Virus record (IMG/VR): IMGVR_UViG_3300045988_175328
Span: 64,001-128,000 of that record
Reading direction: 5' to 3' (one strand)
Length of the DNA stretch: 64,000 nucleotides
From: a virus
In this document: positions 9,582 to 48,628 of the stretch, in pieces
Position numbering within the stretch: position 1 is the first letter of the stretch
Layout of the letters: each line of letters opens with the position of its first letter
The notes under the pieces: model-generated
What the model was told of the DNA's origin: nothing
Seen by the model: the letters and a program-made list of their open reading frames with translations, nothing else
Database searches by the model: none
Program-made: the position numbers and the translations under genes

Positions 9582-9604
9582 AAATATATAAGGAGGTCTT
9601 AAAT

Positions 9605-10264: not shown

Positions 10265-10278
10265 TAATCATTCTCAAA

Positions 10279-10551
10279 AAAAGAGGGATCGCCGGCACTA
10301 TTGTATTCACACTATTTGATCGTGATGCATTAGTCGACGCATTGGCTATTCGCGCAGCAAAAGCTGCGTATTTCCAACGTATTGGTGGTGATATCAATTA
10401 CCAACCATACACAATTACTGAATGGGATACTAAATTGACAGATATGGTAGTTAATACTTTATCTTCCAGTAACAGTTCCCAAATTGCATCCAGTAATCCA
10501 TTTAAACTTACTCAAAAAGTAGCTGTTCAATCTACTCCTAAATACTCCGAT
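10279..10551 (+). CDS. tail tube-like protein, exon 3 of 4
   Basis: KRGIAGTIVFTLFDRDALVDAL...STPKYSD aligns to PRTIAGTIVFTVLDKHVIYEIF...HYLMD of the 11429 paralog. The 5' boundary comes from guide complementarity and the paralog alignment. The 3' boundary is U10551, wobble-paired with G10565. Confidence 0.65.
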
Positions 10552-10935: not shown

Positions 10936-11145
10936 GAAATTCCGCCATTTGACATTACTTTATCTTTTGCAAATGAGTATGGTCAATCGGCAGTAATGGT
11001 TATCTACGGCGTAGAGATCTTAAATGAAGCTTCTAGTTTCTCTGTAGATTCTACTACGACTGATAAAGCATGTACTTACATTGCTCGTTCTGTAGATTAC
11101 TTGCAACCAGTAGAAAACAAATACTTATTGAATAACAATTACTAA
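10936..11145 (+). CDS. tail tube-like protein, exon 4 of 4 (includes the stop)
   Basis: EIPPFDITLSFANEYGQSAVMVIYGVEILNEASSFSVD... aligns to ELPNFDITLSFANEYGHNSSISIYNCTIMDEGQVMSVND of the paralog. An in-frame TAA lies 2 codons upstream of 10936. TAA stop at 11143-11145. Confidence 0.75.
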   Translation, partial: EIPPFDITLSFANEYGQSAVMVIYGVEILNEASSFSVDSTTTDKACTYIARSVDYLQPVENKYLLNNNY

Positions 11146-11195: not shown

Positions 11196-11432
11196 TTGGA
11201 AAATACGAATCAAGTCTTTCTGTATCTAAACAAAGTTTTAGATGATTATATTAAAGAAGCTGTTCAACGAAGAGTTTCTTTAGACGAAGCTAATCTTGAG
11301 ATGAAAGAAGTTTGTCTTAAAGAATTAGAGCAAAGATCAATAGAGCTTAAACCACATATAAAAACACTTGTTGAAAATAGAGTTAAACAATATCTTAAAG
11401 TCTACCACTTAAAAGTGAGGTATTTAAAATGA
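11196..11432 (+). CDS. small hypothetical protein
   Basis: 78-aa ORF with a TTG start after GAGG. Its stop overlaps the next ATG (ATGA). Confidence 0.5.
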   Translation: MENTNQVFLYLNKVLDDYIKEAVQRRVSLDEANLEMKEVCLKELEQRSIELKPHIKTLVENRVKQYLKVYHLKVRYLK

Positions 11433-23310: not shown

Positions 23311-23322
23311 AGGAAATAATTA

Positions 23323-32300: not shown

Positions 32301-33186
32301 CGAAGCAAGTCAAACAAACTGGGACTTTATTTTTGATTCTTTATTTAAAAAAGAACCAGATTTAAAAGTATTAATTGATGCGACAACAGAAGCAGAACAT
32401 TCTTTAATCAAAAGTGGACAAAAGACATACGACGATTATGCTCAATATGGAGTTGATGTAACAAATATTATTGACGACGCAGAAAAAGAAGCTCATTTTA
32501 GAAAGCAGATGAATGCTGCGTATAAAGCAAAATTAAGTCAAGATTTGAAACAGTCTACTGTCGATATGTTCTCTCGTGTCGGAGATAGATTTTCACATGT
32601 TGACACAAGAGCATATGATTTATCCATACAACAGCATAATGATATTGCTGATTATATGGTTCTCGGCATTGGCCAAAACAATGGATTAGATTATAATTAT
32701 TTTAATGTTACTAATTCATCTGGCGCTATGAACCAAAATAATATCGATGTAACACGAATCACAGAAGGAATTCTATCTGGAACACAAGGCGAGATTGTCG
32801 GTAAGGATATACTTACAGAAATTGCTTCTAAGAGATCAAAAGGATTACTTGGTATGGCAATGGGCGCAGGCGCTTCTATTCTTCTTGCTGGAATGGGAAC
32901 ACAAAATCCAATTCCTCAAATTGATAATTCTGTAACAGCTCCTATGGACGATAATGTAATGGTTCGAGAAGTTCAGGCTCCAAGTTATGGCGATAATTCT
33001 GGATATTTAATTAATGTTCGTACATCTAATACAGATGGAGGAGCAACTGCGGCAGCATTAATGAATATGGGTTCATTAGCTCTTGGAGGAAATCGCCAAA
33101 ATATAACAGTTACAACAAGAGTTAATCAACAATATACAGACATGCCTATAACTGAAGCTATGAGTTACTTGTCTAATATGTTCTAA
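23323..33186 (+). CDS. giant protein (3287 aa): N-terminal DEDDh-like exonuclease motifs plus C-terminal two-barrel RNA-polymerase-like motifs (candidate virion RNAP)
   Basis: Exo I VYDIETL (nt 23647), Exo II YNGYNFDERKM (nt 24151), Exo III FHDATVDTFAYANV (nt 24469). Beta-like YAHSHGSKSVIGAVSG (nt ~30271-30318) resembles GRHGNKGV(I/V)S. Beta-prime-like ISRYPYNYQKSISFAKV...MNADNDGDLLYA (NADNDGD at nt 31648-31668) resembles NRxPTLHRxGIQAF...NADFDGD. Confidence 0.6.
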   Translation: MATSNIILRGRNNHFDPSGIFRQDYKLYLSYVKTIHNYIEENNNATGLTGRPTEFLDHKGNHVKINDVNETINIYDHRLSGTNDAKLVKSMFQNNLFERMATENTTVYDIETLVPLVGKTGELFQDSIYQYSSQNIIDGEVVAGKNYYLGLNQKQVEFLKKYYQNFDANLTKDKAALSSYKSIIRAGLYKDDLLAGKALGAIPTELLNPIGKNQIKESKEAFIKGLNALYELHNQNQKLSGEITLLDGSKKTVQGNTYILHQIFDDLLSNNLRTAYNGYNFDERKMYEIAHLNGDSALIQKAEKLMATQSQRFFDIQPAIRLFKELGLGSEFKALGIDNPYAKEGPNGSILPTARNTQLGTMVNYLPEHVRKSLGLMNADAFHDATVDTFAYANVLNYNSKRFSDMVRTLHDQIQNQENTMIPNRQVSFSSNASLDSYHLMRVNRSMYNDNMPMMIVNANEENSLHVQKLGHTFKFNTANPDKPGYFATNESLAGILRKGMNIAIGENVRSFNVDDTIKEQFYNATGHMLAEDELVMVPFKIHDTKGFYGNQYIVLPKGQMSEVLQRMGTFFGGAQLDDSGKIVQTSNVTRDGVNSMFEQIGSLKKYQTGTAQQAVENYLKDSTKYQLNNYLFQQLDKTDINRAKIMKDLARIKDDKVRKLYLQISQEMINNNIDKDQALESIARINGVTSKDPLYLKAHSFIGTLQEQQNIYFSGNRAANSGTPLFRSAAWSTHELLERTDNKLIDTFASTFLDVAAKHGYQNSKGEFFFNSDSNVIAGKLVNVLFQEMRRNNQTLKTSILSLSPDELKKFFYDKITPQNGLDLNARNTEETASKILSFATRAAKGSRGSDNIPANQIKNVLYDIAKFMKNNKIIDSNKDNLLYNMKDIVDNRLDTPELISEYIAKDLASSFERQYSKGKLPDWYNSTFVNYRGGKVTLGENTLGNFRRMASKITGDFVYNPKDSRKILKDFMMSDAIKDQLARYYDDKELGHFIANSANETITNLADTIIDNLDLANMTIHSSHGVVLEDSVGRKFNLTNSIPMVVFEEGVPYIKVGGNTYSISLATRYLESRDFEGKKTSGYISLGVEQLEPYNEIAARISKTKVNKFGSLSAVQLGLNSVTREIYENTTFNSPNNRKSNAGSYNFVAKSARSSGSMYTTTNIGFKPILKDLVPVFNDLIDNKVVSESFITDHLINSTGSTDSAEALEKLGFVPKDPNMRGASGTNYLEMIFNKDQSQYPANQRAIQEFFSKPFENPVLLSNGKQANNFGELILLNSSATGAHRYTIDANKDPIFIIEKQQVDVPYSSLAKGFYSTEARKSSFGQISFTLSASNSNKQVGPGSDVASSRYIQNHLQQMSTIMPEYIDQISDLTGLDYGSLKDQPTLRRFDDRSVEHSVNANMLISSHYEDISTLEKEISSSTDTVLEKYDLMSGKSLSFYNDAPDNLKNKIHGHLRNVAEGSASVAQELADIHHMTETSAGVQMIKLNETSINDKYIKNIMPVFFNHETGQYEALEEAKLAYFKDLNVIAKRDSRSNSDIFYDKSKGDAFGKVVFKDSNTGKLLTPKEIAEILNKSLNEKVGVVDFDDITHIFKELIHQNIYSYFNAKSVGSQTTMKLVADSTKHVASTMGMGIGTVFNGVADIFERNNFGHYVGELMDFDAMKLLLHGDIDVATKVFASEAVKNGRFVPRRFSGKRLYKVLEDVKIKNALSTNAKGFKNYVDKALPNFLIDIKDKNGNVTHQEKLVDLKANARKNMRKRMFGNENIGKDLKYLDDFVKYQKVQDYMAMEQSLTHQLRAINVLKTNINDGISFMNRNNDIYKEIGSMNLKDVKDLASKIRTDVNLQQTHPHMYEFLRKHSVQDLENLFHSFKNIEQLNAQNPLLYNILKNSPEDLDKYIGNIKGVMYGFEKATAGTPRIGNIAQTSNLVNSATDLNEMKEVGVRISKFFDRIKKAVSNPQGKNQKAGELDRFFFGELKVKDSDGKFKTFFEREEHNILNYDFYNSDEMRQMVSVQDKELRAMKRMFSEFQKSKGKDIPISVNKNDIDDYLMQIDYLHGILPYYNVGTVRELFADGALEDIVRGNILALRRSLSHLSGKANLSAEQLLFRERYIVTEILNQHYFDINGEKGLVMGISNSPEDIKRAEPITLIRRMIDNTMHHASGSQEIKAKFNGDQQKIREAIVDYLNQSDWFNIEQNAGHKIFEIDPSDPTKVKIEGKHLRITTKTLGEYKADGGSLNVIHHVTGDDELINPIATMFQELNEKVFGYSLGREIKKKRSGNVHAVVSDSESMHEMNYLLSNIIGTHQQTQFFPYAHSHGSKSVIGAVSGSEQDSLMAMSLNEKALETIHKALPNDQKVREAYLEMIKLQNEKRTKIKEDLLAANQGMTEAQAQKEADKFGLAFHPFNSFKNAVEDPEVRMKLFGQEEMKAGTSVRMIKFGTQDITKSDNYKKLDEVSQKIAHDLHYKNNRFSKEWLHLKRDAISSMAAIVYEEDKGAHSVAQKSAPITLFKELMRNPDSPEAIAYAQFSRDSRDISEKISHGHDVDTGQRYHLNIDGERVYINVPSYKANDETDNLFTQIETNYRRYNESIEEMQNATDSYEKAEFARNASQNAEILRNSIEKLNQNTKNDAYKKGKIRQTNFYEMGIRRSGEAEYLAMDAFDTKNKIFSRGKDAKGNEIVKTVQDVIDEGYTPAIAEVSEQFFEDVGILDKRMSKADRAAKLAKLEEEGTVMAISRYPYNYQKSISFAKVYLNKDMSDKHIRSNHFLQVKMNADNDGDLLYATNLAQGNLKKAFKGMSEDALAYATAADNSIGYLQTTLYNDKGELLDSLKNDAFEANIMTHYKKMMKDISTDEFGELKSTAQLTQNAGAPYHSIKNLNNLLVSSEIVEDSLNRSKFENHFSGLNNIVLSDSTQNQDNVLKISDRRLMNLFSIGAVESGLSAKNFNDQYVPIQLSEGIRNAMTSGSQISDRMTALSNLLDQKAINPNGGEASQTNWDFIFDSLFKKEPDLKVLIDATTEAEHSLIKSGQKTYDDYAQYGVDVTNIIDDAEKEAHFRKQMNAAYKAKLSQDLKQSTVDMFSRVGDRFSHVDTRAYDLSIQQHNDIADYMVLGIGQNNGLDYNYFNVTNSSGAMNQNNIDVTRITEGILSGTQGEIVGKDILTEIASKRSKGLLGMAMGAGASILLAGMGTQNPIPQIDNSVTAPMDDNVMVREVQAPSYGDNSGYLINVRTSNTDGGATAAALMNMGSLALGGNRQNITVTTRVNQQYTDMPITEAMSYLSNMF

Positions 33187-33284: not shown

Positions 33285-36200
33285 ATGGCAGAAGATAATA
33301 ACAATAATGATGCATATAGAAGGCATCATATATCTACAAGTGGGCCACAAGGGTCTGTAAAACCTGATTTAGAAAAACTTAATAATCAGCGGCATCATAT
33401 TGTAGAAAAAACTCCTTCTCTGAAAATTAAAACAGATAATCCATACAAAAGACATCATGTTCCAGAACCTCTTCCTGGAGAAATAGAGAACAATCCATTT
33501 GAAGAAGCTTTTCATAAAAGACATCACAATCTAGAAGAAGCAAGAAAAGATAATTATAATAGACGTAATCATTTAGGTGCTTATTCAGAGAGAAACGAAA
33601 TGAGCACTTCAGATAATAATGAAGTAAATAGTGAAACTTCTGCAACTGAAAAAGAGAAGAAATCTTCTGAAGACGCATTTACTAGACATCATGTAAAAAA
33701 AGATGATACTGTTTATGGTACTAACTCTTCAACCAATACTGCTTCAAATCAAAGTATTGATTCCAAAGGCGACAAAAAAGAAGATAAGAAAAAAGACAAA
33801 AAACCTTTCTGGGAAACTTATAAAAGAGTTGGTGAACGTGGAGGATGGGATGGTTCTGACGAGCAATTTAAAAAAATTGTTGACGAATCTAAAATAGGAT
33901 TGCCACAAATTGAAGATTTTTTAAAAAATCAGATTTTAGATCCAGCTATTTATGATCAAAGTTTAACAGTCGATAATCCTGATGATGCGACCTTCTACAC
34001 AGAAAACCCTCCGGAGAAAGATGGCTTTGATTCTTCTAAGTCTATTTTAACAATGACTGTGAATAAGGATGCATTCTATTATAGCGGCAGTCCTTCTACT
34101 CAAGGACTTGATGATCCAATTTTTACTGGCGCAGTCGATGGCGATACCATCAAATTTGACTTCAAAAAAACTGGTGTTAAGGATCCTCAAATTATTGAAT
34201 ATATAGATTTATCTCGCAAAAAGATGATCAGTTTTTTTGCTGACAAATTTAAAACAAGCAATGAAAAAATCGAATCAATGTTTGATAGTATCAATGAAGA
34301 TGCCATGGGTATTCGTTTCTTATTTTTTGACGCGCCTGAAGTTTTGCATATAAAATATGAAAAAGTAGAAGAATTTAAGGAAATGACATTTCAAGAAGCG
34401 TCTACATATAAGGCAATCATGTGTAAATATACATGTAAAGATCCTGGCACATTTGAAAAATGGGAACCATTAGATGCAAATGAAAAGTATTGGTTTGCCT
34501 ATAAGAATAGAAGATACTATCAAGTTTGCGATTGGTACCAAGATTATGCTCAAAAAAATAGTAATAAACAACCGTCATATTCTAATGGATCTTCTGCATA
34601 TCTTATTAAACAAAATGATACAGATATATTAAGTATTGCTGACGGATATTTAGGATCACGTCTTGTAAGTACAATGTTTCAAAAAGCAACAGCGGCTAAA
34701 TTAGTGGTTGATTTAAACTTTTCCGAAAAACAAGATACTATGTCAGGCTATCCACGAAGAGCTGATTATAGTTCATTTGATAATGAGCTAGTTCGTAATT
34801 TTATCAATGGACTATATCTTGGTATCGAAGGAAAGCAAGATACTATATTTGAAGAAGCAGGCGTCAATGCTTATGGTATGGAACATTACCGCCGCTTACT
34901 TTCTATTATTTATTTAAAAGTTGATGGCAAATGGATTAATCTTAATAAGTATGTAATTTCTAAATTAAAATATGCGTCTCTTTTAAAATATAGTGGTAGT
35001 GCAAATCCTTCTTTAAAAGCTTACTCTTATGAGCACGATACAAAAGTATGGGCAGATAGAGTTTGGAAATCTATTGAGAAATTTGACAATCGTCATGAGG
35101 TTCAACGAAAAGCATTTGGTCGTGGAGATATTTCTGAAAGTTTGAAATCTATTAGAGATTGGACTTTAACATTAGGTGATGTAACATTATTTGTTCCTCC
35201 TGTTTCTATTAAAACAGTGTCTCAATCTAATTATCCAAAATCCCCAATCTTACGATCTAAAGGTTCTGCGGTATTTAATTCATATACCGAAGATAAGATG
35301 CTTCAGATCGAATGTTTCTTTAATGAAGATAGAGGAATTAATGGTGCCCCTGTTACATTAAAAACAAATAAAAGTAACAAGGCCAAAGAAGTTACTTATC
35401 ATATTAATGGTGTTCGTTCTTTATTGTCTCAATTCCAATTTGCTCCCTATATCCCAATCGAGAATAAATATGTGAATGAAGTGCTTGGAATGGATGCTGT
35501 TATTTTTGATAGTTTCTCTATTGAGACTGTAGCTAATTATCCTAAATTGCTTCATGTTACATTATTATTGCGCGAGTTTAATCATCACGCTTTCATGCCG
35601 CAAGTTCCAAATGCAAGATTACTAAGCGATTTAGAAGTAGATTATCGAAATTTCTTCGCCAAAACAATTAATTATGATTTATTTCGTTGGTATTATCAAC
35701 AACCATTACTTCTTGGGAACAAATTAAAAGACGAGAAACTTCCAGTATATTCAAAAGAGTTTATGAAACAAACTCTATTCGCTAATAAATCTGCTTATTT
35801 CCCAGTCGATACATTAGATCCGACTATATCTATTTTTGCTCCTAATGAAAGCAAAATTAATCTTTTAGAAAAATCTAGAAATCGATATAATCGACAAAAT
35901 AAAAAGAATCCAGTACTATATACTCCATCTGATGCTGATAAGAAATTATTTGAAAAGCTAGATGGATTATGGCGAAATATTTTGTCGTATCAATATGATG
36001 AAACTTTAACAGTTGATAATTATGAAACATTTGCTCAGAAATTTACTTCATATCTTGATGGCAAAGGTTATCTTACTTTCAATGATGGCATTCAGTATAA
36101 TGATCATCCTTACTCAAATCAACTTTCTGAAAAGATGCCATTTGGACCTGTTGGCGAAAAAGGCGAACGAATTCCATTTTTGCAAATAAGAGTTCGATTG

Positions 36201-38330
36201 GATACTGAAAATTCTAGTGATGTTTATGATCTTTTAAGACAACAATTCGCAGCCAACTTTGTTGCGGCAAAATCTCCAGCCGAATCTGGTGGACGAGGAC
36301 AGTCTACTGGTACAAGTAGTCCTAACTGGTTCGTTAAATATGATTCCATCTTTGCTAACAATGAAATAGAATTACAATTTAAATTTAATGATCCTAGCAT
36401 ATTATATGCTGGAAACTATGGATATCAATTCTTAGAATATTGTGCATCTCAATATGTCGATCAAAAAAATATTGATGAAAACTATAAAGGCTTAAGTGGT
36501 AATGAAGAATTAGCTAAAAATGTTCATGACTCACAATTTGAAACATTAGATTCTTTAACATATGAAACATATTTAACAAATGTTTTAGTTCAAGGATTTA
36601 CAGCTAATTTTACAAATTCTTTTGCCGAAATTTCTCTTAACAGCATGAGCGGTGGTGTTTCTCCTCAATATATGGGCGGGCAAAATGCCAATATAACTTT
36701 TAGCATTATGACATACGACAAGGAAACTGTTGACAAACTTGATAAGATTCCTCGCATCGTAAAATACTTACGTCAGCGTTATCCTAATGCATTGCCACTA
36801 TATCCATTTAGAATTGATTCAGAATTCACAAAATTACTTGGTATATTTGAAGTGATTGTAACATCTGTAAGAACATCTACTGTGCCTAATTATCCTGGGT
36901 TAATTAAAGTTGATGTCGTTATGGAATCTGTTGACCGAACAATTCGTAATCGAGAAGTTATTAAAAAATTCTATGAAGGAACACTTAATAGAACAATAGA
37001 TGCTCCTGAAAATGTTACTGATACATTGCCTTTGTCTTATTTTGATCTTGAAGATAATTTATCAAGAGCGGAGTTATATCCTGATTTGCAATTACCGACA
37101 ATATATGAACTTGGAGAATTAGGATTTGAATTTGTTCGGTATAAAAATCCTGGAGGGCAAATTTATGTAGATCCTGATTTTTATTTCGTATATCAATATC
37201 CATTGTTCTCAGATCTTTTAAAACGATTAATTGTAATTGAATCAAAAAAAATATTTGAAGATGAAAATGGAAGTATAAAAGATGGTGCTGATCCATTCTT
37301 TGATTTCTCATTTTTAACTGCTGATCAAGTTAATACCATATCAAGTGGTGGGCAACCTATATTATCAGAGTCTACAAATTATCCTAATCGAGATGATTTC
37401 AAAGAATTAAAAGAAGCTGAAGAAACGATCCAGAATAAGATAATTCCTAATGAGAAAAAAGAACAAACATTAACTGCTAAAGTAGATGGATATAGTCATT
37501 GGAATATTTCTAAAATGATTAAAGCTTCTTTTCAAGAACCATATTATACTTGGTTGTATCATTCTAATAAAGATAAATCTGCAGGTACTGATACAGAACT
37601 TGTTACTGTTATTGATGAATATAAAAAAGCTGCACTGGAAGCCATTACTTATCTTCAAGAGAATCCGATTACAAATAATAGTGATATTGAAGATATTTTA
37701 AAATTAATAGTAACTATTACTGATCGCGATGCTAATAAAGGAACAAGTAATGGTAATGAGTCTAAAACAAAATCTATTGAAAAAATAAATACAACTACTA
37801 AATCAGATATCGAAAAAGCATCTGGAGACAATAATGATCCAGACGCTTCTGTTGATTTAACATATCGGCAATCTAAAGATGAAAATGGCGACTGGAAAAA
37901 AGGTGAAGTTAATACTGGATCAGGAACTAATTATGGAGTAAAAGACCTTAACCATCAATTTATCCGTCGCTTATTAAATGCAGTTCTTCTTGCTAATGTA
38001 AACGAAGAGTATTCTTCAGCGAAAAAAGAAGATTTTAAAAAGAAATTTCCAACGAACCAAACTGAAATTGATGACGCAATTAATGTTAAATATAAAGAAC
38101 TAGTAGAAAAATATACCGATAATGAAATTCTCTATAGAAAGCAAAACAATCTTCTATTAAAAGGGAATAATCGTACTGAATCATTATATTCTTCTTCAGG
38201 AGTGAGCTTGCTCCCTGATGATATTCAAGAACAAATCAATAAAGAAGCTTATGCTGCTGCATATGGTGAAATATATAAAAAATGGAAGCCTACAACATAT
38301 GGAGATTCTGGCGTAACATATTATAGTTAT
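33285..38330 (+). CDS. giant tail protein, predicted exon 1 (1682 codons): RHH repeat region plus a staphylococcal-nuclease (SNase) domain
   Basis: ATG after GAGGAAA. SNase motifs AVDGDTIKF (nt 34133-34156), GIRFLFFDAPEV and GMEHYRRLLSIIYLKVDGKWINLNKYV. The TAA at 38331-38333 is predicted to be intronic (see the intron at 38331). Confidence 0.65.
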
Positions 38331-38999
38331 TAAAATCTCAAACTAACACTCCTGACTTTTAGTCATGAGATACAGTTTTGGAAACTAGTAAGGATGTTGG
38401 GAAACTAGCATCTAGTGGCGGGTTAAATCCGTCCAACAAAGACACTGAATTGCTGGGAACCCCTAAAGCTCAAAGTGCCTTGATGGTCACGAAAGTAGAA
38501 ATAAATCTTTGAGATAGTATACGGTTAAATCCTAAGTACTAAGTGACAATGGGCAATCAGCAGCGAAGCCGGATCTATTTTTAAACCGGAACGTTCAACG
38601 ACTAGACCTCTTGAGGGTCGTACACCGTAAGCGATTGACGGTGGAAGTGGTGTCGCCTAAGTTAAGCAGATAGTGCTTAATATGGATAAGATATAGTCTG
38701 TGCTTGTATGAAAATACAAGGTGCGGGTAGTGCCGCCGGTTAGAAAGTAGCGTTTCTAGCTGAATGAGGCTTCACAAAACGTGGTTCTAAAAAATGCCCT
38801 TAAAATATAGATATTTTACAGAAAATATGCTATACTATATTTGTTAAAAGTAAGGCTGTAGATCGAAAGATCTTATGCTGTAGAGGCGACCTGGGCACGC
38901 CTAAAAGAATAAGGGGTTCTTAGAGATCCAAACTTCTTAATAGAGAAACTTTTTTATGGCTCTCTTAGAACCACGTGATTTTAATCATGTGAAGCTCAG
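38331..38999 (+). ncRNA. group I (IA2) intron between the 1682-aa and 1897-aa ORFs
   Basis: The core is homologous to 7735-8070 and 10620-10935: CACTGAATTGCTGGG, GGTTAAATCCTAAG, GGCAATCAGCAGCGAAGC, GTTCAACGACTAG and AAGATATAGTC at 38689-38699. P1: AT|TAAAA (38329-38335) pairs with TTTTAGT (38357-38363), with U38330-G38362. The 3' end ...TCAG (G38999) is homologous to ...AACAG of the 10552 intron. Confidence 0.7.
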
Positions 39000-41900
39000 A
39001 ATTATGATAATATTCTTTACGCAGATAAATATAATCAATTTAGAATAAAAACTATGGGTGCCTTATCTATTCCAGTATTTACAGAAGAGGCTCTTCGTAA
39101 AAACAGAATTCTTAATCGATATGACGATAAAGTCTATGATATTCGATATAAAAATTATAATGAAGGTATAGGTATTTCTCGTGAAGAATTCATGAACTAT
39201 CGATTAAGTTTTATTGATCCATATTATTCTAAAGCTCCAATCTGGCAAACTACGCAATATATGAAAAATTGTATAAATCATATCAATTATTCAAAAGTAG
39301 CTTTTTTAAGAAATGTTCTTTATATACTTGCCATTCTTGTAATGGAAGATATTATGCCAACATATTTAATCGATGTTTTAGGAACAGGCGCAGTTAGTGA
39401 AACAAAAGCATTAGAATTTATTAAAAATCTAAAGCTTGCCAACAATGCAGAAAAGAAAAACTATGATACCTTAAAAGAGTTTGTCATGAAAAATAAAACA
39501 ACCTATGTAAATGGCAAAATCTTTATAGCTTTCCTTCTTGCAATGAATATTGAAGATGATGAACTTTGGAAATTAGTTTTCAGTAAAGATACAGTAGGAT
39601 TAAATGCTTATAAGCAAAAGATTCTATCTAAGTTGTCTGGTAAAACTGCTTCGCTTACAGAATCAGAAAAACGAGTTCGCAAATTATTCTTAGCAATGAT
39701 ACCAACTGGTATTGTTAAGGATTTAGAAGAACTTGGGACTGAGGACTCTGAAGAAAACACTGTTACTGATATGATATCTTCATTGCAGCAAAAATTTGTT
39801 TTAACTGCTAATAAACAGCCATTCCGAAAAATCAGAGATATGTTTCTTAATATGGTTCAAACTGATATTCGAGGAAGGATGCTTCGAGGATTTCCAACAT
39901 TCCATTTGATCTTTATTGACGAAGGTCTTCAAACTGGCTACTGGAAAATGCATGACAGTTTCTATAGCTCTAATTCTATTAGTTCGATACAAGTTGTTAA
40001 ATCCAAAAACATTGCAGCTGATACAGCCACAATTGTCCTCAATAATTTGTACAACAATATTATTGATGAATATGAATCATTTGATCCGACTGATGGATTC
40101 TTTACTCAGATACAATATGGCGTTGCTGCTATGGAAAAAGTTTATGACTCGATTTTCAATCCGGAGCAATTTGTACGCGAAGCTGAATTCAAACGAAGCC
40201 TGATCCCTGAACATTCTGGAATTAAACTAGTCGCGGGAGCTCGTATTCATTTAAGAATGGGATATGGTTCTGATAGTGCTAAATTAAACCCTATGTTTAA
40301 TGGCACCATTACTGAAGTATTGGGAGGAGAAGTTGTTCAAATAACAGCTCAAGGCGATGGAATTGAACTGTCAAATCCAATTCTTGAAGATAACTATGGA
40401 GACAAAATAAAAAATCGTGGATTAAGTTATCTCTCTTGGAATACATCTAATTATGGTAAATCTTATGGTGGTGTAACTCCTAGAACTTTAATTAGTTCTT
40501 TCTTAACAGTAACTGATAATAATTTCTTGTCTAGCGCTCTTAAGGATCTTCACAATAAAGACTTTGCTTCTAATTGGGTAAGAAATACTTCTGGAATATT
40601 ACGTTCAGCAATGAATGCCGTAAATCCGTTCGGACTTTATCATTTTGGACAAGTATCTTATAATAGATTTTTTATTAATGGAGAACCTGTTCAAAATATT
40701 TACGAAGTGGATGAATCTGGTGTTTATTTTGGTAATCAAAAATTATCTGGGAAATATTATCGAGGATTTTTAAAAGATGAAAATTCGCGCGAATTAAATA
40801 AGTCTTATTTACAAGGGCTTTTGAATACAGATAATGAATTTTTTGGATCAATTGGTGCAGGTCTTTCTAATCTTGGAGATTTATTCCCATTCCACTTTGG
40901 GGACAATGGCGATTTTAAGGCTCCATATGTTAGTATAAAAACGCAAGGTAGAACGCTATGGGATATCCTTAAATTCTCGGCTTCTGCAAGTCCGTCTTTT
41001 ATTGGCGCTATCGATAATTTTGGATTTAGAAGTACAGTGTTTTTAGGCAGACCAGATTGGTATTATGCATATCGATATGGTAAAACTGCCGATAATGGGG
41101 TTATTGAATTAAGAAAACCATTCCAACAAATCCATATTTATACTTCAGATAATGATATTATTAGAAACGATATTCAAACTACTTCTAATAAAGTAACGAC
41201 AGTTGCTCGTGGCGTCTATGAATATGAAGACATGAAACGTTCTACTGATGATGTGTATTTTGATCGAGATATTTATCCAGAATATCAACGAAAAATGATT
41301 GTTGACACTTGGCTTTATGGACGCTCTCAAACAAGTACAACTGCTGAAAATCTTTTCAATGTTGATTCTACAGATGGATTAGTTGACAAAACTCTTGGCG
41401 GTGGTGTTATTATCGGAAATATTCTAGGATGGGCCTGGAGAAATACTGTCGGAAGACTTGGTGACTATGACCTTCTTTCTGGCGGTGAAAATCATAATTT
41501 TAAAAAAACTGCTAGAAAGATGACAATTAGCCGTTTGCGTCAATCCTTAGAGCAACTATACACAGGAAATCTTGTTGTATATGGAGATCCTTCTATTAAG
41601 CCACATGATTTTATCGTAATTCATGATGAAGTAACTAGTTTATCTGGCCCAGCTACTGCCAGAGATATTGTTCATTCTTTAAGTTTTGAAACTGGGTTTG
41701 TAACAACTATTTCTCCTGATGCTATTGTAGACCCTATTAATGATAAAGAAAGTAAACTTAGAACTGTTCAAGTTCTTGGTACTTCCTTGGGAATGATTCA
41801 ACATGCTCTCTTTTTAAGAAATATGTTATATTCAGAAGTCGCAGAAAAAATCATACAATCTATTTCTGATTTTACAGCAGAAAAAATGTATGAATTAAGA

Positions 41901-44747
41901 AAAAAATATTCAGATAAGCTTTATAAAAAATTTAGTAATAAATATGAGAGAATGCAAAGATATCAAATTAATTCAGAGTTAGCTGCTAGAAAAGTTCCTA
42001 TATATGAGGAAAAGATTTCTAACATAAAACATGAAATAATTGAAATTGAAAAGCAGACTCTTAATTATAAAGCGTATATGAATGATGATGTTTTTTCTAA
42101 AAATGTTCAAGATTATTATAATAAAAACGAAGAACTTTCTAAATTAAAACTTCAAAAACAAAATTATTTAAGTAAAGGCATACCAAATACTGATTCTATA
42201 ATTACAAATTTAGATAGCTCTATTAACAATTTAGAACAAGAAATTGCTAAGATTGAGCCTTCTTTGTCTGGAGTAGGTGAATCTAAAGCATATAGTGCTT
42301 ATACAGAAATTCGAAAAAAAGAAGCTCAAATTTCTATGCTTGAAAGGCATCTCGAAAAATATAAAAAATTCGCAGAGACAGCAAAAAAGACATTAGACAA
42401 ATTTACTTTTAATTTTTACAAGGATAAATTAAATCTTCTTGTTAACAAAGTAGAAATTTGGAGAGATAATTCCAAAGCTCTTGAACTAGCTAAACTTGCA
42501 TTCATGAATGATTTTGTAAAAAGTGTTCGTCCTAAATATGCTGATGAATATAAAAAGCTAGAACAATTATCTAGTGGATGGGATGAATGGGATACATTAA
42601 TCACTGACGATGCTGTTCGTAAAGAATTAAAAGATTATATATCTGGTAGTTCAATTTCTCCAGAGCTTGCTAAAGAAATAGAAGACGCAAGAACTGGAAT
42701 GAAAGATTTGCTAAATAAAATATCTACTCTTCAAACTCAAATTGAATCATCATACGATAGCTTAAAAATATCAGCAGAAGCACTTGAAGAATATGAAAAA
42801 AATGGGAAACTCCCAGACATAAACATTTCTAATAGCAATATTTCAAGAAACGCTTACTATGAAGATTATAAAAAATTAGCTGCCGAAAAAGAAGAATTAG
42901 ATAAAATTCCAGATGTCAATAGAACTCAAAAACAAAAAGATACTATTAAAAAACTTCAAGATGCTATTGATCAATTAAAGATAGATTATAACAATAAATT
43001 TAATGATCTTTTTGATGTCTCTAAACTTGAAATATTAAATAATGCATTAGTTAAAACTGGAGATCCTGAAAAAATAGAGATTGCTATTAAAGAGACAGAA
43101 ATTTTAAGAGCTCAACTCTCATACTATGAAAAAGCTATAAGTGTTCTTGATGATGTTAGTTTCGAAAGAGAAAAAACTACTAGGTTAATATCTTTACTTA
43201 AAGAACACCAAGCAGCTATTCTTGATATCCTAGAGAAAAGAAAAGAAGCTTTAACTGCTTTAGGTAATCTTAGAGGGACAGATCTCTATAAAGCTATTCA
43301 GAAACTTCCTGATGATCTTAAAGAAAAAGTTTTAAAAGATTTATCTCCTAAAATGGAAAATTTAGATGAGATTTTAAAGACTATTGCAGAGATTGCTCAA
43401 GACGAAGCGACAGTTGCAAAAGAGCTTAAGTCACTTATTGCTACAGAATCTTCTATTGCTCGTTTTAACGAAGCTATGAAAGGCAATGGCGTTATTAATC
43501 TTGTTCTTAAAAAATATAGCATTATTGAGAATCTTGGAGGACCTATTAAATACATTAGTAAAGTATTTGGTGTCTTATCTAAAGCATTTGCATTCCCAGG
43601 AAAAATTATTGCATTTGCTGAAAAAATTCCAGTAATAGGTCCTCTTCTTAAAAAACTTGGAAGCAAGACAGCAACATTAATTACATTCTTAGGTGAAATG
43701 TGGGGCATTGAACTTGCAGCATTTTTAAATAATTATAAGACATTACAGATAACTCCACTTACTAAAAATGGTACTCCATTTATTCCATTCATGGGCGGAT
43801 CAATGGGAACCATTGTTGGCACTCCTAACTTTAATCGAAAAGGGCCATTATTTGAATTAATCACTCCATTCTTTAGTTCTGACGAAAAAATTAAGGAAGC
43901 TCATCCATTTAAATCATTTATTGGTGGATTTTTAGAGTTCTTTATGATGAATGATTTTACAACAGCTGTCGATACAATTAATGAAAATGTTGGTGCTCAA
44001 TATCCTCAAAGTGGGTATAAGATTAATATGGCAACTGATGTTCTTAATTCATTCTTTACAAGACAGCCGTTAAAAACATATCATCAATTATTAGCTCCTA
44101 AATATCCAGGGCAAAGTAATACTAGTCAAAATCCAGAACAAAAGAAAAGTGAAGAAGAGCTTCTTAAGGCAAAAATTTCTCAATGGCAACATAAATGGAG
44201 TTCAAGTGGATTTGCTCAAAATGCATTGACTCCTTTAATATATGTTCCAGATTCTGATTTGTTTTTATTAAAACAAGTTAATTTCTTTATTTCTAGATTT
44301 GAGAAATTAGATGATGAAGATTTATCGAATGTGACAACATTAGATCTTTCACTAGGTAGTAGAACTGAGAAAGTAAATTGCATTAAAGTAGAAACTTCAG
44401 AATCTGTGGAATATGATGCACCATTAATTCATCCATATGCAAATGCAGTTATTCTAAAAATTTTAACAGAATGCTACAATAAGCTTTCTTATAAAGAGAA
44501 AGTTGATAAAAATGAATTCTTAAATAAGGTTAGTCAAGACTACATTACTTATGCAAGTGGTTATAAGTTTAATGGTAGTAATATCTATACTTCTTCTGGG
44601 TTTGGATTTACTTTAATTCCTCATGGCGAATCAGTTAAAAATCTTGAAACAGTATTATCTTTAATGAAACAAGAAAACGTTCTTGATTTTAAAAAAGACG
44701 ACTCTGATAAATTTATCATTAATATTTTAATTCCACGGGATATTTAA
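39000..44747 (+). CDS. giant tail protein, predicted exon 2 (1915 codons): hub-like N-region, long coiled coil, hydrophobic segment
   Basis: The frame is open from 38985. ATG 39054 has no Shine-Dalgarno site (TTTAGAATAAAAACTATG). RIHLRMGYGSDSAKLNPMFNGTITEVLGGEVVQITAQGDGIEL resembles gpD/gp27/VgrG-type hub proteins. Heptad-rich region at roughly aa 900-1400, and a Gly/hydrophobic stretch (PVIGPLLKKLGSKTATLITFLGEMWGIELAAFL). Confidence 0.6.
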   Translation, partial: NYDNILYADKYNQFRIKTMGALSIPVFTEEALRKNRILNRYDDKVYDIRYKNYNEGIGISREEFMNYRLSFIDPYYSKAPIWQTTQYMKNCINHINYSKVAFLRNVLYILAILVMEDIMPTYLIDVLGTGAVSETKALEFIKNLKLANNAEKKNYDTLKEFVMKNKTTYVNGKIFIAFLLAMNIEDDELWKLVFSKDTVGLNAYKQKILSKLSGKTASLTESEKRVRKLFLAMIPTGIVKDLEELGTEDSEENTVTDMISSLQQKFVLTANKQPFRKIRDMFLNMVQTDIRGRMLRGFPTFHLIFIDEGLQTGYWKMHDSFYSSNSISSIQVVKSKNIAADTATIVLNNLYNNIIDEYESFDPTDGFFTQIQYGVAAMEKVYDSIFNPEQFVREAEFKRSLIPEHSGIKLVAGARIHLRMGYGSDSAKLNPMFNGTITEVLGGEVVQITAQGDGIELSNPILEDNYGDKIKNRGLSYLSWNTSNYGKSYGGVTPRTLISSFLTVTDNNFLSSALKDLHNKDFASNWVRNTSGILRSAMNAVNPFGLYHFGQVSYNRFFINGEPVQNIYEVDESGVYFGNQKLSGKYYRGFLKDENSRELNKSYLQGLLNTDNEFFGSIGAGLSNLGDLFPFHFGDNGDFKAPYVSIKTQGRTLWDILKFSASASPSFIGAIDNFGFRSTVFLGRPDWYYAYRYGKTADNGVIELRKPFQQIHIYTSDNDIIRNDIQTTSNKVTTVARGVYEYEDMKRSTDDVYFDRDIYPEYQRKMIVDTWLYGRSQTSTTAENLFNVDSTDGLVDKTLGGGVIIGNILGWAWRNTVGRLGDYDLLSGGENHNFKKTARKMTISRLRQSLEQLYTGNLVVYGDPSIKPHDFIVIHDEVTSLSGPATARDIVHSLSFETGFVTTISPDAIVDPINDKESKLRTVQVLGTSLGMIQHALFLRNMLYSEVAEKIIQSISDFTAEKMYELRKKYSDKLYKKFSNKYERMQRYQINSELAARKVPIYEEKISNIKHEIIEIEKQTLNYKAYMNDDVFSKNVQDYYNKNEELSKLKLQKQNYLSKGIPNTDSIITNLDSSINNLEQEIAKIEPSLSGVGESKAYSAYTEIRKKEAQISMLERHLEKYKKFAETAKKTLDKFTFNFYKDKLNLLVNKVEIWRDNSKALELAKLAFMNDFVKSVRPKYADEYKKLEQLSSGWDEWDTLITDDAVRKELKDYISGSSISPELAKEIEDARTGMKDLLNKISTLQTQIESSYDSLKISAEALEEYEKNGKLPDINISNSNISRNAYYEDYKKLAAEKEELDKIPDVNRTQKQKDTIKKLQDAIDQLKIDYNNKFNDLFDVSKLEILNNALVKTGDPEKIEIAIKETEILRAQLSYYEKAISVLDDVSFEREKTTRLISLLKEHQAAILDILEKRKEALTALGNLRGTDLYKAIQKLPDDLKEKVLKDLSPKMENLDEILKTIAEIAQDEATVAKELKSLIATESSIARFNEAMKGNGVINLVLKKYSIIENLGGPIKYISKVFGVLSKAFAFPGKIIAFAEKIPVIGPLLKKLGSKTATLITFLGEMWGIELAAFLNNYKTLQITPLTKNGTPFIPFMGGSMGTIVGTPNFNRKGPLFELITPFFSSDEKIKEAHPFKSFIGGFLEFFMMNDFTTAVDTINENVGAQYPQSGYKINMATDVLNSFFTRQPLKTYHQLLAPKYPGQSNTSQNPEQKKSEEELLKAKISQWQHKWSSSGFAQNALTPLIYVPDSDLFLLKQVNFFISRFEKLDDEDLSNVTTLDLSLGSRTEKVNCIKVETSESVEYDAPLIHPYANAVILKILTECYNKLSYKEKVDKNEFLNKVSQDYITYASGYKFNGSNIYTSSGFGFTLIPHGESVKNLETVLSLMKQENVLDFKKDDSDKFIINILIPRDI

Positions 44748-47834: not shown

Positions 47835-48628
47835 TTAAAAGCCTTACGACTATACATAAGAGTATACGAGATTTCTTCGAAGATAAGATTAAAGATAGAA
47901 TTGAACAGGGGTCAGTATTAGATTTGTTCATGATATCGACTGCGAGTGAAATAGAAGCAGCTTATGAATATATCGAAGAGAATAAATATCCATATATCTA
48001 CACCTCTCTTACTGGACAGAATATTGATAGAATGGCTAAGATGTGTGGATTTGAACGAAGGCCAAATGAATCAGATCAAAATCTTTTGTTCCGATTAATT
48101 AATTGGTCTTTTATTAATGCAAAAAGTAATACTATTGCAATAGAAGCAGCTCTTTTAGATATGCAGTATTCTAGTAATATCACTTATTTCCCACGAGCGT
48201 ATGGTGCTGGTACAGCTATTTGTTATGTGATTCCGTTAGAATACACAGAGCATACAATAGAACTTGCTTTAGAAGAAGCAAAGGATAGATTGAAAAATGT
48301 AGTCAGCCCATCGCTCTATATAGAATATGTTGTTCCTAATTTAAAAGCAATTACGATTTCAATCAATGTCGACAATGTTGATTCTAACTTAGTCGATATT
48401 CAAAAAAATATTGAATCTAAATTTGCTTATTATATCAACTCAATTCCGCCGCACGAAACACTTGATATCGGATATTTAGAAAGGATAGGATATGAAGAGC
48501 CTGGCGTTAACTATTTTAGTGTTACTGGGGTATTCGTTGACGGCGTACCTACTAGCAATGTCAGCATTACTCAGGATTTAACATCTAAATTTATTCTCGA
48601 TGAAATTCGATGGCATGAGGTAAGCTAA
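47831..48628 (+). CDS. baseplate J-like protein (tentative)
   Basis: 265 aa with a TTG start. It follows the gp25-like gene. NIDRMAKMCGFERRPNESDQNLLFRL resembles the J-family LD.LA...G..R segment. Confidence 0.4.
   Translation: MIKSLTTIHKSIRDFFEDKIKDRIEQGSVLDLFMISTASEIEAAYEYIEENKYPYIYTSLTGQNIDRMAKMCGFERRPNESDQNLLFRLINWSFINAKSNTIAIEAALLDMQYSSNITYFPRAYGAGTAICYVIPLEYTEHTIELALEEAKDRLKNVVSPSLYIEYVVPNLKAITISINVDNVDSNLVDIQKNIESKFAYYINSIPPHETLDIGYLERIGYEEPGVNYFSVTGVFVDGVPTSNVSITQDLTSKFILDEIRWHEVS

What the first reader, a model, noticed from the sequence alone, without database searches (positions are those of the whole stretch)
38331..38999. Group I intron whose splicing would delete a stop codon and fuse two giant ORFs into a 3597-aa protein
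Seen in sequence:
- The 1682-codon ORF ends TAT|TAA.
- The U of that TAT (38330) wobble-pairs with G38362 in a 7-bp P1 (AT|TAAAA with TTTTAGT).
- The intron core is unmistakably related to the tube-gene introns.
- The 3' end TCAG| (G38999) is positionally homologous to AACAG| of the 10552 intron.
- The sequence from 39000 is in frame with the 1897-aa ORF for 18 codons (NYDNILYADKYNQFRIKT-M...).
- ATG 39054 has no Shine-Dalgarno site, unlike most genes here.
Inference: exon 1 (1682 codons) plus exon 2 (1915 codons) give 3597 aa. Unspliced RNA would give only the 1682-aa N-terminal product, so the level of splicing could set the ratio of short to full-length protein.
Basis: partly seen in the sequence, partly recalled or inferred. 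Interest (0 to 1): 0.75.

Follow-up and report, generated by a model that had tools for sequence, protein, structure and literature searches.

The report
Self-splicing intron splits giant phage gene
A 669-base self-splicing (group I) intron sits inside one giant tail/baseplate gene of a 227-kb phage, so two "genes" of 1682 and 1897 codons are really one 3597-codon gene; a close relative without the intron has exactly the predicted uninterrupted sequence, so the case is real but ordinary in kind.

Summary
Rfam finds a complete group I ribozyme at 38349-38720 (72.4 bits, cut-off 50). ORF1 ends TAT|TAA at 38330|38331, and ORF2's frame is open from 38985. G38999 is the only in-frame G for a 3' splice site.

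The decisive evidence is a 3634-aa protein on three independent metagenome contigs. It is 89% identical to the fused protein and reads ...GVTYYGYNYDNIIYADKYNQFRIKTMGAL... straight across the predicted junction. At DNA level the window differs from that allele by an insertion of exactly 38331-38999. Distant relatives (Bacillus phage 0305phi8-36 gp147, Moorella phage MTATph1, KLEB27-3) also carry both halves in one gene. ATG 39054 has no Shine-Dalgarno site.

New here: the intron looks like an ORF-less derivative of an IS200/IS605-type IStron.
- It lies after GTTAT and ends TCAG.
- It carries a 234-nt 3' stem-loop where its sister intron (7632-9386) holds a TnpB gene.
- Both of its ends are homologous to that sister's ends.

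Splicing itself is untested. P1 is weak and competes with a stronger hairpin. The idea that splicing level sets a short-to-long protein ratio has no support. This is a new member of a known kind.

The parts
33285..38330 (+). Exon 1 of the giant baseplate-hub/tail-lysin-like gene (1682 codons, last codon TAT)
   Evidence: ORF list. Matches PHROG 20474 profile positions 127-304. Collinear with the N-terminal blocks of single genes in 0305phi8-36, MTATph1 and KLEB27-3. About 89% identical to P0001.
38331..38999 (+). Group I intron, 669 nt, with no protein-coding ORF. It is exactly the segment absent from the intron-less allele.
   Evidence: Rfam RF00028, 72.4 bits. No ORF longer than 44 aa inside. 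Insertion boundaries fixed by comparison with L004-L006.
38331..38333 (+). In-frame TAA, the first three bases of the intron. It ends translation of unspliced RNA after 1682 aa.
   Evidence: Sequence.
38329..38363 (+). P1: AU|UAAAA (38329-38335) paired with the guide UUUUAGU (38357-38363), with the U38330-G38362 wobble at the 5' splice site and a 21-nt loop
   Evidence: Sequence. Energy +1.0 kcal/mol. The UAGUC guide core and the (G/U)AU|UA splice context are shared with the sister introns.
38349..38369 (+). Left-end-like palindrome CUCcUGACU-UUU-AGUCAuGAG. It overlaps the guide sequence and competes with P1.
   Evidence: -7.3 kcal/mol as RNA. The 5' 50 nt are homologous to the 5' end of the TnpB-bearing sister (score 38 against 15.9 +/- 5.6 in shuffles).
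38374..38437 (+). P2 hairpin (38374-38386) and a branched P2.1 extension (38396-38437)
   Evidence: Read from the sequence and from the Rfam alignment insert. Inferred, not tested by covariation.
38439..38720 (+). Catalytic core P3-P9, with P7.1/P7.2. Includes the consensus segments AAUUGCUGG, CAAUCAGCAGC, GUUCAACGACUA and AAGAUAUAGUCU.
   Evidence: Rfam alignment. 70-71% identity to the sister introns. 72-78% identity over 110-230 nt to introns of Staphylococcus, Enterococcus, Bacillus, Listeria and Clostridioides phages.
38723..38762 (+). P9.1 (38723-38736) and P9.2 (38737-38762) hairpins
   Evidence: MFE fold. Compensatory changes among the three introns are visible in alignment A1.
38765..38998 (+). 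3' IR-type stem-loop. A 23-bp closing stem (38765-38790 with 38965-38998) encloses about 170 nt of branched RNA. It occupies the position where the sister intron carries TnpB.
   Evidence: Fold z = -4.1, with no shuffle folding as well. Homology to the sister introns stops at 38767. No match elsewhere in the window or in the phage and viral collections.
38972..38991 (+). Right-end-like terminal hairpin CACGUGAUU-UU-AAUCAUGUG, 8 nt from the 3' end. It resembles the last stem-loop of TnpB guide (omega) RNAs.
   Evidence: Terminal alignment to the 3' end of the TnpB-bearing sister: score 33 against 12.9 +/- 5.2 in shuffles, 0 of 1000 as high. Same GAAyC-hairpin-...TCA(A/G)| layout as the omega-RNA ends of TnpB relatives.
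38999..38999 (+). Terminal G of the intron (3' splice site 38999|39000); the intron ends UCAG
   Evidence: Sequence. Boundary fixed by the intron-less allele. TCAG is the 3' terminus of group A IStrons (PMC4227781).
39000..44747 (+). Exon 2 (1915 codons plus stop). The first 18 codons (39000-39053) lie upstream of the ATG that ORF finders pick.
   Evidence: Translation. Against the relative, the 18 codons are 14 identical, 3 synonymous and 1 conservative change. No SD before ATG 39054. PHROG 20474 profile positions 1219-1519.

Best explanation
The segment 38331-38999 is a group I intron inserted in a single giant structural gene. Annotations of distant homologs place that gene in the baseplate-hub / tail-lysin class. 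The phage is an uncultured jumbo phage with a 227-kb contig.

In the transcript, the guide UUUUAGU pairs with the exon/intron junction AU|UAAAA. An external guanosine attacks after U38330. The freed exon 1 then attacks after the terminal G38999. This joins ...TAT to AAT... and removes the TAA that is the first codon of the intron. Ribosomes starting at ATG 33285 then read 3597 codons. Unspliced RNA yields only the 1682-aa N-terminal part.

Shown here: the ribozyme core, the exact insertion boundaries, the uninterrupted relative, and the collinear distant homologs. Inferred: that splicing takes place.

The intron is most likely an ORF-less descendant of an IS200/IS605-type IStron, that is, a group I intron fused to a transposon.
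- It sits after a T-rich pentanucleotide ending in AT, and it ends TCAG.
- Its last third is a long stem-loop at the place where the sister element in the tube-like gene (7632-9386) carries TnpB and its guide RNA.
- Both of its termini are homologous to that sister's termini.
For: The ribozyme is present. There is a full-length RF00028 match at 72.4 bits (cut-off 50), with the conserved J6/7-P7 and J8/7 segments intact.

An intron-less allele exists.
- An exhaustive HMMER search with the 619 aa spanning the junction found P0001 (3634 aa). It is 85% identical in one stretch, query 1-619 against P0001 1369-1987.
- P0001 reads ...GDSGVTYYGYNYDNIIYADKYNQFRIKTMGAL....
- Its gene lies on three contigs in the same gene order.
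- Fused protein against P0001: 89% identity over 3424 aa with 2 gaps. No intron-core motif occurs in those contigs.
- Only the boundaries 38330|38331 and 38999|39000 rebuild the relative's DNA (27/30 bases, against at most 15/30 for shifts of 1-4).

Distant homologs agree. Both halves match one PHROG family at collinear profile positions. Both hit one annotated CDS in 0305phi8-36, MTATph1 and KLEB27-3. In the HMMER search, 20 further proteins of 2079-3179 aa align to the start of exon 2 at their positions of about 1070-2080.

ORF2 does not look independently translated. There is no SD before ATG 39054. The 18 codons before it show a coding pattern of change.

Evidence for IStron ancestry:
- Group A IStrons insert after TTGAT/ATTAT/TTTAT and end TCAG. 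ORF-less copies keep only the IR stem-loop (PMC4227781). Here the boundaries are GTTAT| and ...CTCAG|.
- The sister intron holds a TnpB gene (Pfam OrfB_IS605 and Cas12f1-like_TNB) at the same 3' position.
- The sister ends ...GGAUGUCAG|, aligned with the ...GUGUCAA| ends of the omega RNAs of TnpB relatives.
- The 5' and 3' ends of the two elements are significantly similar.
Against: No RNA or protein data exist, so splicing is inferred.

P1 is weak: 7 A-U/G-U pairs, +1.0 kcal/mol, and only 2 pairs with the exon. The guide is sequestered in a -7.3 kcal/mol hairpin. P10 is at best 2 bp. Rfam's own alignment puts 'P1' at a local hairpin 38353-38374, which would leave the TAA in place. I regard that as a misalignment, but it shows that structure alone does not fix the 5' site.

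Against the IStron label:
- No transposase or TnpB lies in this intron.
- The inner ~170 nt match nothing.
- GTTAT is not one of the three published target pentanucleotides.
- The closest TnpB relatives in genomes are not next to introns.
- No second copy of this exact element was found.
Confidence: 0.88

Rival explanations
1. The intron is dead or splices negligibly, and the gene is now truly split. A 1682-aa protein ends at TAA 38331, and a separate 1897-aa protein starts at ATG 39054.
For: Automated gene calling on the source contig reports exactly these two proteins. P1 is weak and competes with a stronger hairpin. There are no expression data.
Against: ATG 39054 has no SD (+0.2 kcal/mol). 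It lies 720 nt from the preceding stop, so translational coupling is not possible. The ribozyme core scores as well as its sisters. One of those sisters, the intron at 10552-10935, must splice to complete the tube-like gene. The 18 codons before the ATG are conserved as coding sequence. Every homolog found keeps both halves in one polypeptide.
Confidence: 0.07
2. One reading: splicing is deliberately partial, and its level sets a functional ratio between a 1682-aa short form and the 3597-aa full-length protein.
For: The stop codon lies at the first intron position, so unspliced RNA would give a defined short product. Competing folds exist at both ends: the left-end hairpin against P1, and the terminal hairpin against the closing stem. 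For IStrons, a regulated balance between splicing and guide-RNA formation has been reported (bioRxiv 10.1101/2023.11.20.567912).
Against: The 89%-identical relative has no intron and no stop there, so it makes only the long form. Distant homologs are also single proteins. Stops right after the 5' splice site are expected in any AT-rich intron; the 10552 intron has one 7 nt in. Nothing indicates a function for the fragment.
Confidence: 0.08
3. The 5' splice site is the one implied by Rfam's alignment, after U38358 in the local hairpin 38353-38374. The intron would then lie in an intergenic spacer and the TAA would be kept.
For: The Rfam alignment of model positions 5-26.
Against: The intron-less allele shows that the inserted DNA starts at 38331, not 38359. 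For the sister intron at 7684, the Rfam 'P1' hairpin aligns with the hairpin that follows the true P1 of the 10552 intron. Rfam's P1 placement is therefore unreliable in this family. The alignment has four non-canonical positions in that helix.
Confidence: 0.02

Closest known systems
Group A (IS200/IS605-type) IStrons such as CdISt1 of Clostridioides difficile (Tourasse et al. 2014, PMC4227781; Zedaveinyte et al., bioRxiv 10.1101/2023.11.20.567912)
   Same: A group I ribozyme forms the 5' part. A stem-loop after P9.2 is the place for the IS genes. Insertion is 3' of a T-rich pentanucleotide ending in AT. The 3' terminus is TCAG. Palindromes lie near both ends and overlap P1 and the 3' splice site. 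The sister copy carries TnpB with a guide RNA ending at the splice site.
   Different: This copy has no TnpA or TnpB. Its flank is GTTAT rather than TTGAT, ATTAT or TTTAT. It sits in a phage structural gene. The nearest TnpB relatives of the sister copy are ordinary IS elements without introns.
ORF-less BcISt1 copies of emetic Bacillus cereus (PMC4227781)
   Same: An IStron that has lost its ORFs and keeps only the IR stem-loop 3' of the ribozyme, while still positioned to splice.
   Different: BcISt1 is a group B (IS607-type) element. It has a GG-ending target, a CGG 3' end, splicing after G instead of U, and a very AU-rich IR stem. None of these applies here.
Classical phage group I introns (T4 td/nrdB/nrdD, SPO1 DNA polymerase, Twort orf142, Staphylococcus Kayvirus and Enterococcus phage introns)
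   Same: A ribozyme core of the same type, 72-78% identical over 110-230 nt to many of them. It interrupts a protein-coding phage gene, with an in-frame stop soon after the 5' splice site. Several related introns occur in one genome.
   Different: Most of those carry a homing endonuclease or no insert. This one has a 234-nt transposon-type 3' stem-loop. Its host gene is a giant tail/baseplate gene rather than a nucleotide-metabolism or replication gene.
Bacillus phage 0305phi8-36 gp147 and relatives (host protein family, PHROG 20474)
   Same: Collinear conserved blocks. The gene lies in the tail/baseplate module, downstream of a giant ORF and a few genes upstream of a baseplate-wedge (gpJ-like) homolog.
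   Different: The window protein is much longer (3597 aa against 1903-2326 aa). The extra length is a poorly conserved ~620-aa linker, and the intron sits in that linker. No Pfam or PDB sequence match was found.

Membership tests
Group I intron (Rfam RF00028) | Sequence and structure match to the family covariance model above the curated threshold, covering P1/P2 to P9 | tested here: met
   72.4 bits against a gathering score of 50, model positions 1-253 of 253, E 2e-16.
Group I intron (Rfam RF00028) | 5' splice site follows a U that forms a U-G wobble with the internal guide sequence in P1 | tested here: met
   U38330 lies opposite G38362 within AU|UAAAA / UUUUAGU. The boundary is confirmed independently by the intron-less allele. 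The helix is weak, +1.0 kcal/mol.
Group I intron (Rfam RF00028) | The intron ends with a G (omega G) | tested here: met
   G38999 is the last inserted base relative to the intron-less allele.
Group I intron (Rfam RF00028) | Precise removal restores an uninterrupted host gene | tested here: met
   Removal gives 3597 codons with no stop. The junction is identical in register to the 3634-aa relative.
Group I intron (Rfam RF00028) | Guanosine-dependent self-splicing | not testable with these tools
   This needs in-vitro transcription and splicing, or RT-PCR from infected cells.
IStron, group A (IS200/IS605 type) | [quoted passage not shown] | tested here: inconclusive
   The flank is GTTAT|. That is T-rich, ends in AT, and differs by one base from ATTAT and TTTAT, but it is not a published target. 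There is no duplication. The sister elements have GTGAT| and CCGAT|.
IStron, group A (IS200/IS605 type) | 3' terminus TCAG coinciding with the 3' splice site | tested here: met
   ...GAAGCTCAG|AAT. The definition comes from PMC4227781.
IStron, group A (IS200/IS605 type) | IS component (tnpA and/or tnpB) enclosed by an IR stem-loop 3' of the ribozyme | tested here: not met
   The stem-loop 38765-38998 is present, but no ORF longer than 44 aa lies inside the intron. Only the sister at 7632-9386 carries tnpB. This copy therefore qualifies at most as an ORF-less derivative.
IStron, group A (IS200/IS605 type) | Ends shared with an autonomous or TnpB-bearing copy (left and right ends with subterminal palindromes) | tested here: met
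   5' ends: score 38 against 15.9 +/- 5.6 in shuffles. 3' ends: score 33 against 12.9 +/- 5.2. In both tests 0 of 1000 shuffles scored as high. Palindromes lie at 38349-38369 and 38972-38991.
IStron, group A (IS200/IS605 type) | Mobility by TnpA (tyrosine transposase), with or without TnpB-guided homing | not testable with these tools
   No tnpA was noticed in the 64-kb window (ORFs were only partly annotated), and the rest of the 227-kb contig was not examined. No second copy of this element was found in three viral-contig scans.

The most novel reading that the evidence does not exclude
The ORF-less intron may still be a working non-autonomous IStron. Its 3' module (38880-38999) would act as a guide-RNA scaffold for the TnpB encoded by the sister element in the tube-like gene, with the first bases of exon 2 as the guide. 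That would let the element home into intron-less alleles of co-infecting relatives. Mutually exclusive folds would then tune how much full-length hub protein is made. Those folds are the left-end hairpin against P1, and the terminal hairpin or a local stem (38916-38930 with 38958-38972) against the 23-bp closing stem.
Probability: 0.1. Interest if true: 0.6.

Novelty: new member of a known kind. Interest (0 to 1): 0.38.

Why it matters
There are three practical points.

- Annotation. Gene callers report two giant 'hypothetical proteins' on the source contig. The phage almost certainly makes one ~400-kDa tail/baseplate protein. Protein clustering, structure prediction and virion proteomics of this phage group should use the spliced 3597-aa sequence.

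- Biology of the element. The locus extends transposon-linked group I introns (IStrons) to the structural genes of a jumbo phage. Published phage cases are IS607-type elements in Clostridium botulinum phages. The window holds a natural series in one genome: a plain intron, a TnpB-bearing IStron, and an ORF-less IStron-like copy. That series could be used to study how splicing and guide-RNA functions trade off.

- Significance. It does not open a new mechanism. Intron-interrupted phage genes and ORF-less IStrons are both already known.

Tried and rejected
- A megablast of 37000-40500 and a tblastn of the 600-aa junction peptide against 50,697 phage records found nothing.
- The word-indexed search of 5.8 billion proteins with the same 600 aa also found nothing. 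An 85%-identical protein exists and was found by the exhaustive HMMER search, so one search was a false negative of that tool and not evidence of absence.
- Pfam gave no hit for either half. PDB sequence searches of the conserved blocks gave none. One search failed because of a frame error of mine.
- There are no tRNAs in the window.
- An Rfam low-threshold scan of 38250-39100 gave only chance-level extras.
- Exact-pattern scans of IMG/VR for the left-end palindrome, the right-end hairpin and the 3' terminus found no other copy.
- A distant blastn against phages matched only the ribozyme core (query positions 103-383) and never the 3' stem-loop.
- I looked for IStrons among the 50 genomic relatives of the sister element's TnpB. 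None of the 20 scanned has a group I intron.
- An attempt to derive a consensus guide-RNA structure with RNAalifold recovered only the first hairpin, because MAFFT misaligned the terminal stem. I therefore did not build a covariance model, and the guide-RNA likeness of the target's 3' end rests on pairwise statistics.
- The promoter and terminator scan of the intron was at chance level.
- Rfam's P1 placement was considered and rejected (see the rival explanations).
- Two literature 'find' calls failed on term syntax.
Full report
**What is in the sequence.**
- The + strand ORF 33285-38333 (1682 codons) ends ...TAT TAA.
- The next long ORF starts at ATG 39054 (1897 codons). It lies in the same genomic reading frame as the first ORF.
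- Upstream of that ATG the frame stays open back to 38985.
- From 39000 it encodes NYDNILYADKYNQFRIKT before the Met.
- With exon 1 ending at 38330, the only G upstream of the ATG that keeps the frame is G38999. That gives an intervening sequence of 669 nt (3 x 223).
- Joining 33285-38330 to 39000-44744 gives 3597 sense codons.

**The ribozyme.**
- Rfam's group I intron model matches 38349-38720 over its full length, at 72.4 bits (gathering score 50, E 2e-16).
- The universally conserved segments are intact: AAUUGCUGG, CAAUCAGCAGC, GUUCAACGACUA and AAGAUAUAGUCU.
- Two further full-length matches lie at 7684-8025 and 10542-10883.
- The three introns are about 70% identical from P3 through two hairpins beyond P9. 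These are P9.1 (38723-38736) and P9.2 (38737-38762), and compensatory changes are visible in them.
- The core is also 72-78% identical over 110-230 nt to introns of Staphylococcus, Enterococcus, Bacillus, Listeria and Clostridioides phages.
- No ORF longer than 44 aa lies inside the intron.

**Is it one gene? Distant homologs.**
- Both ORFs match the same PHROG family (20474). ORF1 matches profile positions 127-304 and ORF2 matches 1219-1519.
- tblastn with the conserved part of each ORF hits the same annotated CDS in several phages:
  - Bacillus phage 0305phi8-36 gp147 (1903 aa, annotated baseplate hub / endolysin);
  - Moorella phage MTATph1 CDS0032 (2225 aa);
  - Bacillus phage KLEB27-3 gp035 (2326 aa).
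- Edson and WH1 give matching hits, but I did not check their annotation.
- blastp of the fused protein against the first three is collinear. Fused residues 531-809 and 1097-1331 come from exon 1, and residues 1950-2636 come from exon 2.
- The junction (1682|1683) falls in a poorly conserved linker of about 620 aa.
- Three genes further downstream, the 265-aa ORF 47831-48628 matches the baseplate-wedge (gpJ-like) genes of MTATph1 and KLEB27-3. This places the gene in the tail/baseplate module.
- I found no Pfam or PDB sequence match, so the functional label rests on the relatives' annotations.

**Is it one gene? The decisive test.**

An exhaustive HMMER search of 1.84 billion representative proteins used the 619 linker residues spanning the junction.
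- It returned P0001, a 3634-aa protein. It is 85% identical in a single stretch, query 1-619 against P0001 1369-1987.
- P0001 reads ...AYGEIYKKWKPTTYGDSGVTYYGYNYDNIIYADKYNQFRIKTMGALSIPVF....
- The predicted spliced product reads ...GDSGVTYYSY|NYDNILYADKYNQFRIKTMGALSIPVF....
- There is no gap at the junction, and 2 differences in 42 residues.

The gene for P0001 is on three independent metagenome contigs (L004-L006).
- Gene order is the same as in the window: giant ORF, this gene, then 121, 389, 336, 173 and 265 aa.
- Over the whole length the fused protein and P0001 are 89% identical across 3424 aa, with two gaps.
- None of the intron's core motifs occurs in those contigs.

At DNA level:
- the relative reads ...catattatggatat|aattatgacaat...;
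- the window reads ...catattatagttat|[669 nt]|aattatgataat....
- Sliding the deletion by 1-4 bases either way drops the match from 27/30 to at most 15/30.

This does not depend on any RNA-structure argument.

Twenty further proteins of 2079-3179 aa align to the first ~270 residues of exon 2 at their positions of about 1070-2080. This again shows that exon 2's start is an internal part of a larger protein.

**ORF2 as an independent gene?**
- The 22 nt before ATG 39054 pair with the anti-SD at +0.2 kcal/mol.
- That is the weakest but one of the 30 ORF starts tested in the window. Most score -4 to -15.
- The ATG lies 720 nt from the previous stop, so translational coupling is excluded.
- Compared with the relative, the 18 codons before the ATG are 14 identical, 3 synonymous and 1 conservative (Leu/Ile).
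- The source contig (ENA ERZ27276323 k141_26322, 227,241 bp) is on record with the two halves called as separate proteins. That is an annotation artefact.

**Splice-site structure.**
- The proposed P1 exists: 38329-38335 with 38357-38363, and U38330 opposite G38362.
- It consists of A-U and G-U pairs only. It has 2 pairs on the exon side and a 21-nt loop. Alone it is worth +1.0 kcal/mol.
- Rfam aligned a different local hairpin (38353-38374) as P1. That would put the splice site after U38358 and keep the stop. The intron-less allele rules this out.
- Rfam's P1 placement is unreliable in this family. The hairpin it calls P1 in the 7684 intron aligns with the hairpin that follows the real P1 of the 10552 intron.
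- The 5' site of the 10552 intron is fixed by comparison with a paralogous gene.
- The three introns share a guide core UAGUC and the junction context (G/U)AU|UA. The junctions are GUUAU|UAAAA (target), CCGAU|UAUUC (10551|10552) and GUGAU|UAAAU (7631|7632).
- A palindrome at 38349-38369 sequesters the guide in a -7.3 kcal/mol hairpin.
- P10 is at most two pairs.
- The efficiency of splicing therefore cannot be judged from sequence.

**The 3' third of the intron.**
- Homology to the sister introns stops at 38767, just after P9.2 and the shared UGAAUGAG.
- In the plain 10552 intron the 3' end follows at once (UGAAUAUAACAG|).
- In the target, a 23-bp interrupted stem (38765-38790 with 38965-38998) closes off about 170 nt. 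It brings G38999 back next to P9.2.
- The fold z-score is -4.1, and no shuffle folded as well.

In the 7684 intron the same position holds a 362-aa TnpB gene at 8165-9253 (Pfam HTH_OrfB_IS605, OrfB_IS605 and Cas12f1-like_TNB).
- The sequence downstream of that gene aligns with the guide (omega) RNA scaffolds that follow the TnpB genes of 50 genomic relatives.
- Those scaffolds end ...GGAGUGUCAA| or ...GUAGUUCA. The window element ends ...GAGAGGAUGUCAG| at 9386.
- Removing 7632-9386 rebuilds a P3/P4 segment (CUGUGAU|AUGCUGGAAACCCC) of a second, outer intron.
- That sister is therefore an IStron, a group I intron fused to an IS200/IS605-type element.

The target shares both termini with that sister.
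- 5' 50 nt: alignment score 38 against 15.9 +/- 5.6 for shuffles.
- 3' 50 nt: alignment score 33 against 12.9 +/- 5.2 for shuffles.
- In both tests 0 of 1000 shuffles scored as high.
- The shared 3' layout is GAACC, a hairpin, a purine-rich tail, then UCAG|.

**Comparison with the literature.**

Tourasse et al. (PMC4227781) define group A IStrons by three features:
- insertion after TTGAT, ATTAT or TTTAT;
- a TCAG 3' end;
- an IR stem-loop that encloses the IS genes.

They also report ORF-less copies that retain only that stem-loop, and IStrons in Clostridium botulinum phages (IS607 type).

Zedaveinyte et al. (bioRxiv 10.1101/2023.11.20.567912) report three points:
- IStron splice sites coincide with the transposon ends;
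- the guide-RNA stem-loops of IS605 elements coincide with the right-end DNA palindromes;
- splicing and guide-RNA maturation are mutually exclusive.

The target matches the boundary signature (GTTAT|...TCAG|), the stem-loop position and the end homology, but it has no IS gene. I therefore file it as a group I intron with all testable features met. I describe it as a probable ORF-less IStron derivative, not as a full member of that class. One check failed to tie it to known IStrons: the closest TnpB relatives of the sister element are not next to introns. No other copy of the target was found in IMG/VR.

**Mechanism and confidence.**

Shown:
- a complete ribozyme core;
- insertion boundaries exact to the base;
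- an uninterrupted close relative;
- collinear single-gene distant homologs;
- the absence of a ribosome-binding site for ORF2.

Inferred:
- the intron splices, by guanosine attack after U38330 and then exon ligation after G38999;
- the 3597-aa protein is made.

I put 0.88 on this explanation as a whole. I put about 0.65 on the IStron ancestry.

The suggestion that partial splicing is used to set a short-to-long protein ratio has no support. The relative makes only the long form, and an early in-frame stop is expected in any AT-rich intron. I give it about 0.08.

**Verdict.**

The finding is correct and well argued, but it is ordinary in kind: an intron-interrupted phage structural gene. Its main value is to correct the annotation of a ~400-kDa protein. 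It also provides, within one window, a plain intron, a TnpB-bearing IStron and an ORF-less IStron-like copy side by side.

Noticed in passing
window 6529-11145: A tail-tube-like gene (paralog of ORF 11429-13132) is broken into at least four exons. Approximate positions: A 6529-6687 (...REKAPV), B 7528-7572 (YTFGSAEPRSISRG), C 10282-10551 (RGIAGTIVF...YSD), D 10936-11145 (EIPPFDITL...). Exon B and the A/B and B/C boundaries were read by eye from a weak tblastn hit and from translations.
   Followed up: partly
window 7573-10281, with 7632-9386 nested inside: Probable twintron. An IStron lies inside a second group I intron. The IStron is a group I core plus TnpB 8165-9253 plus a guide RNA ending GUCAG| at 9386. 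The outer intron has its core at about 9386-9560, carries a LAGLIDADG-like ORF at 9605-10264, and has its J8/7 motif at 10228. Removing 7632-9386 rebuilds the outer intron's P3/P4 segment.
   Followed up: partly
window 6688-7530: Another intron-like interval lies between tube-gene exons A and B. It holds a 204-aa ORF (6883-7497, strong SD, no Pfam hit) followed by AAGATATAGTCC at 7508. Rfam did not call it at the gathering threshold.
   Followed up: no
window 9254-9386, and loci L008-L057: The TnpB clade of this phage shares a guide-RNA scaffold: an ACCGyrGGGmAyrCGG hairpin, a long-range stem, then a terminal GAAkC hairpin ending GT(T)CA(A/C). In the phage copy the last base is G. That is the base a group I 3' splice site needs.
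   Followed up: partly
window 38325-38330 versus L004 14398-14403: The two codons just 5' of the insertion site differ between alleles: AGT TAT with the intron, GGA TAT without. The surrounding 60 nt are 97% identical. This could reflect co-conversion or selection for or against the element's target.
   Followed up: no
window 33285-33810 versus P0001 residues 1-211: The first ~175 residues of the window protein (HH-rich repeats such as KRHH, RRHH and TRHH) have no counterpart in the otherwise 89%-identical relative, which has a different N-terminus.
   Followed up: no
window 16882-33186 and 48628-53688: Three more giant ORFs (2142, 3287 and 1686 aa) flank the gene. The 2142- and 3287-aa ORFs gave no Pfam hit; the 1686-aa ORF was not scanned. 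The 3287-aa ORF occupies the position of the tape-measure-like genes of 0305phi8-36 and KLEB27-3, but it showed no tblastn similarity to them at E below 1e-3.
   Followed up: no
tool behaviour: The word-indexed protein search returned nothing for a 600-aa query, yet an 85%-identical 3634-aa protein exists in the related library. A negative from that tool should not be read as absence.
   Followed up: yes
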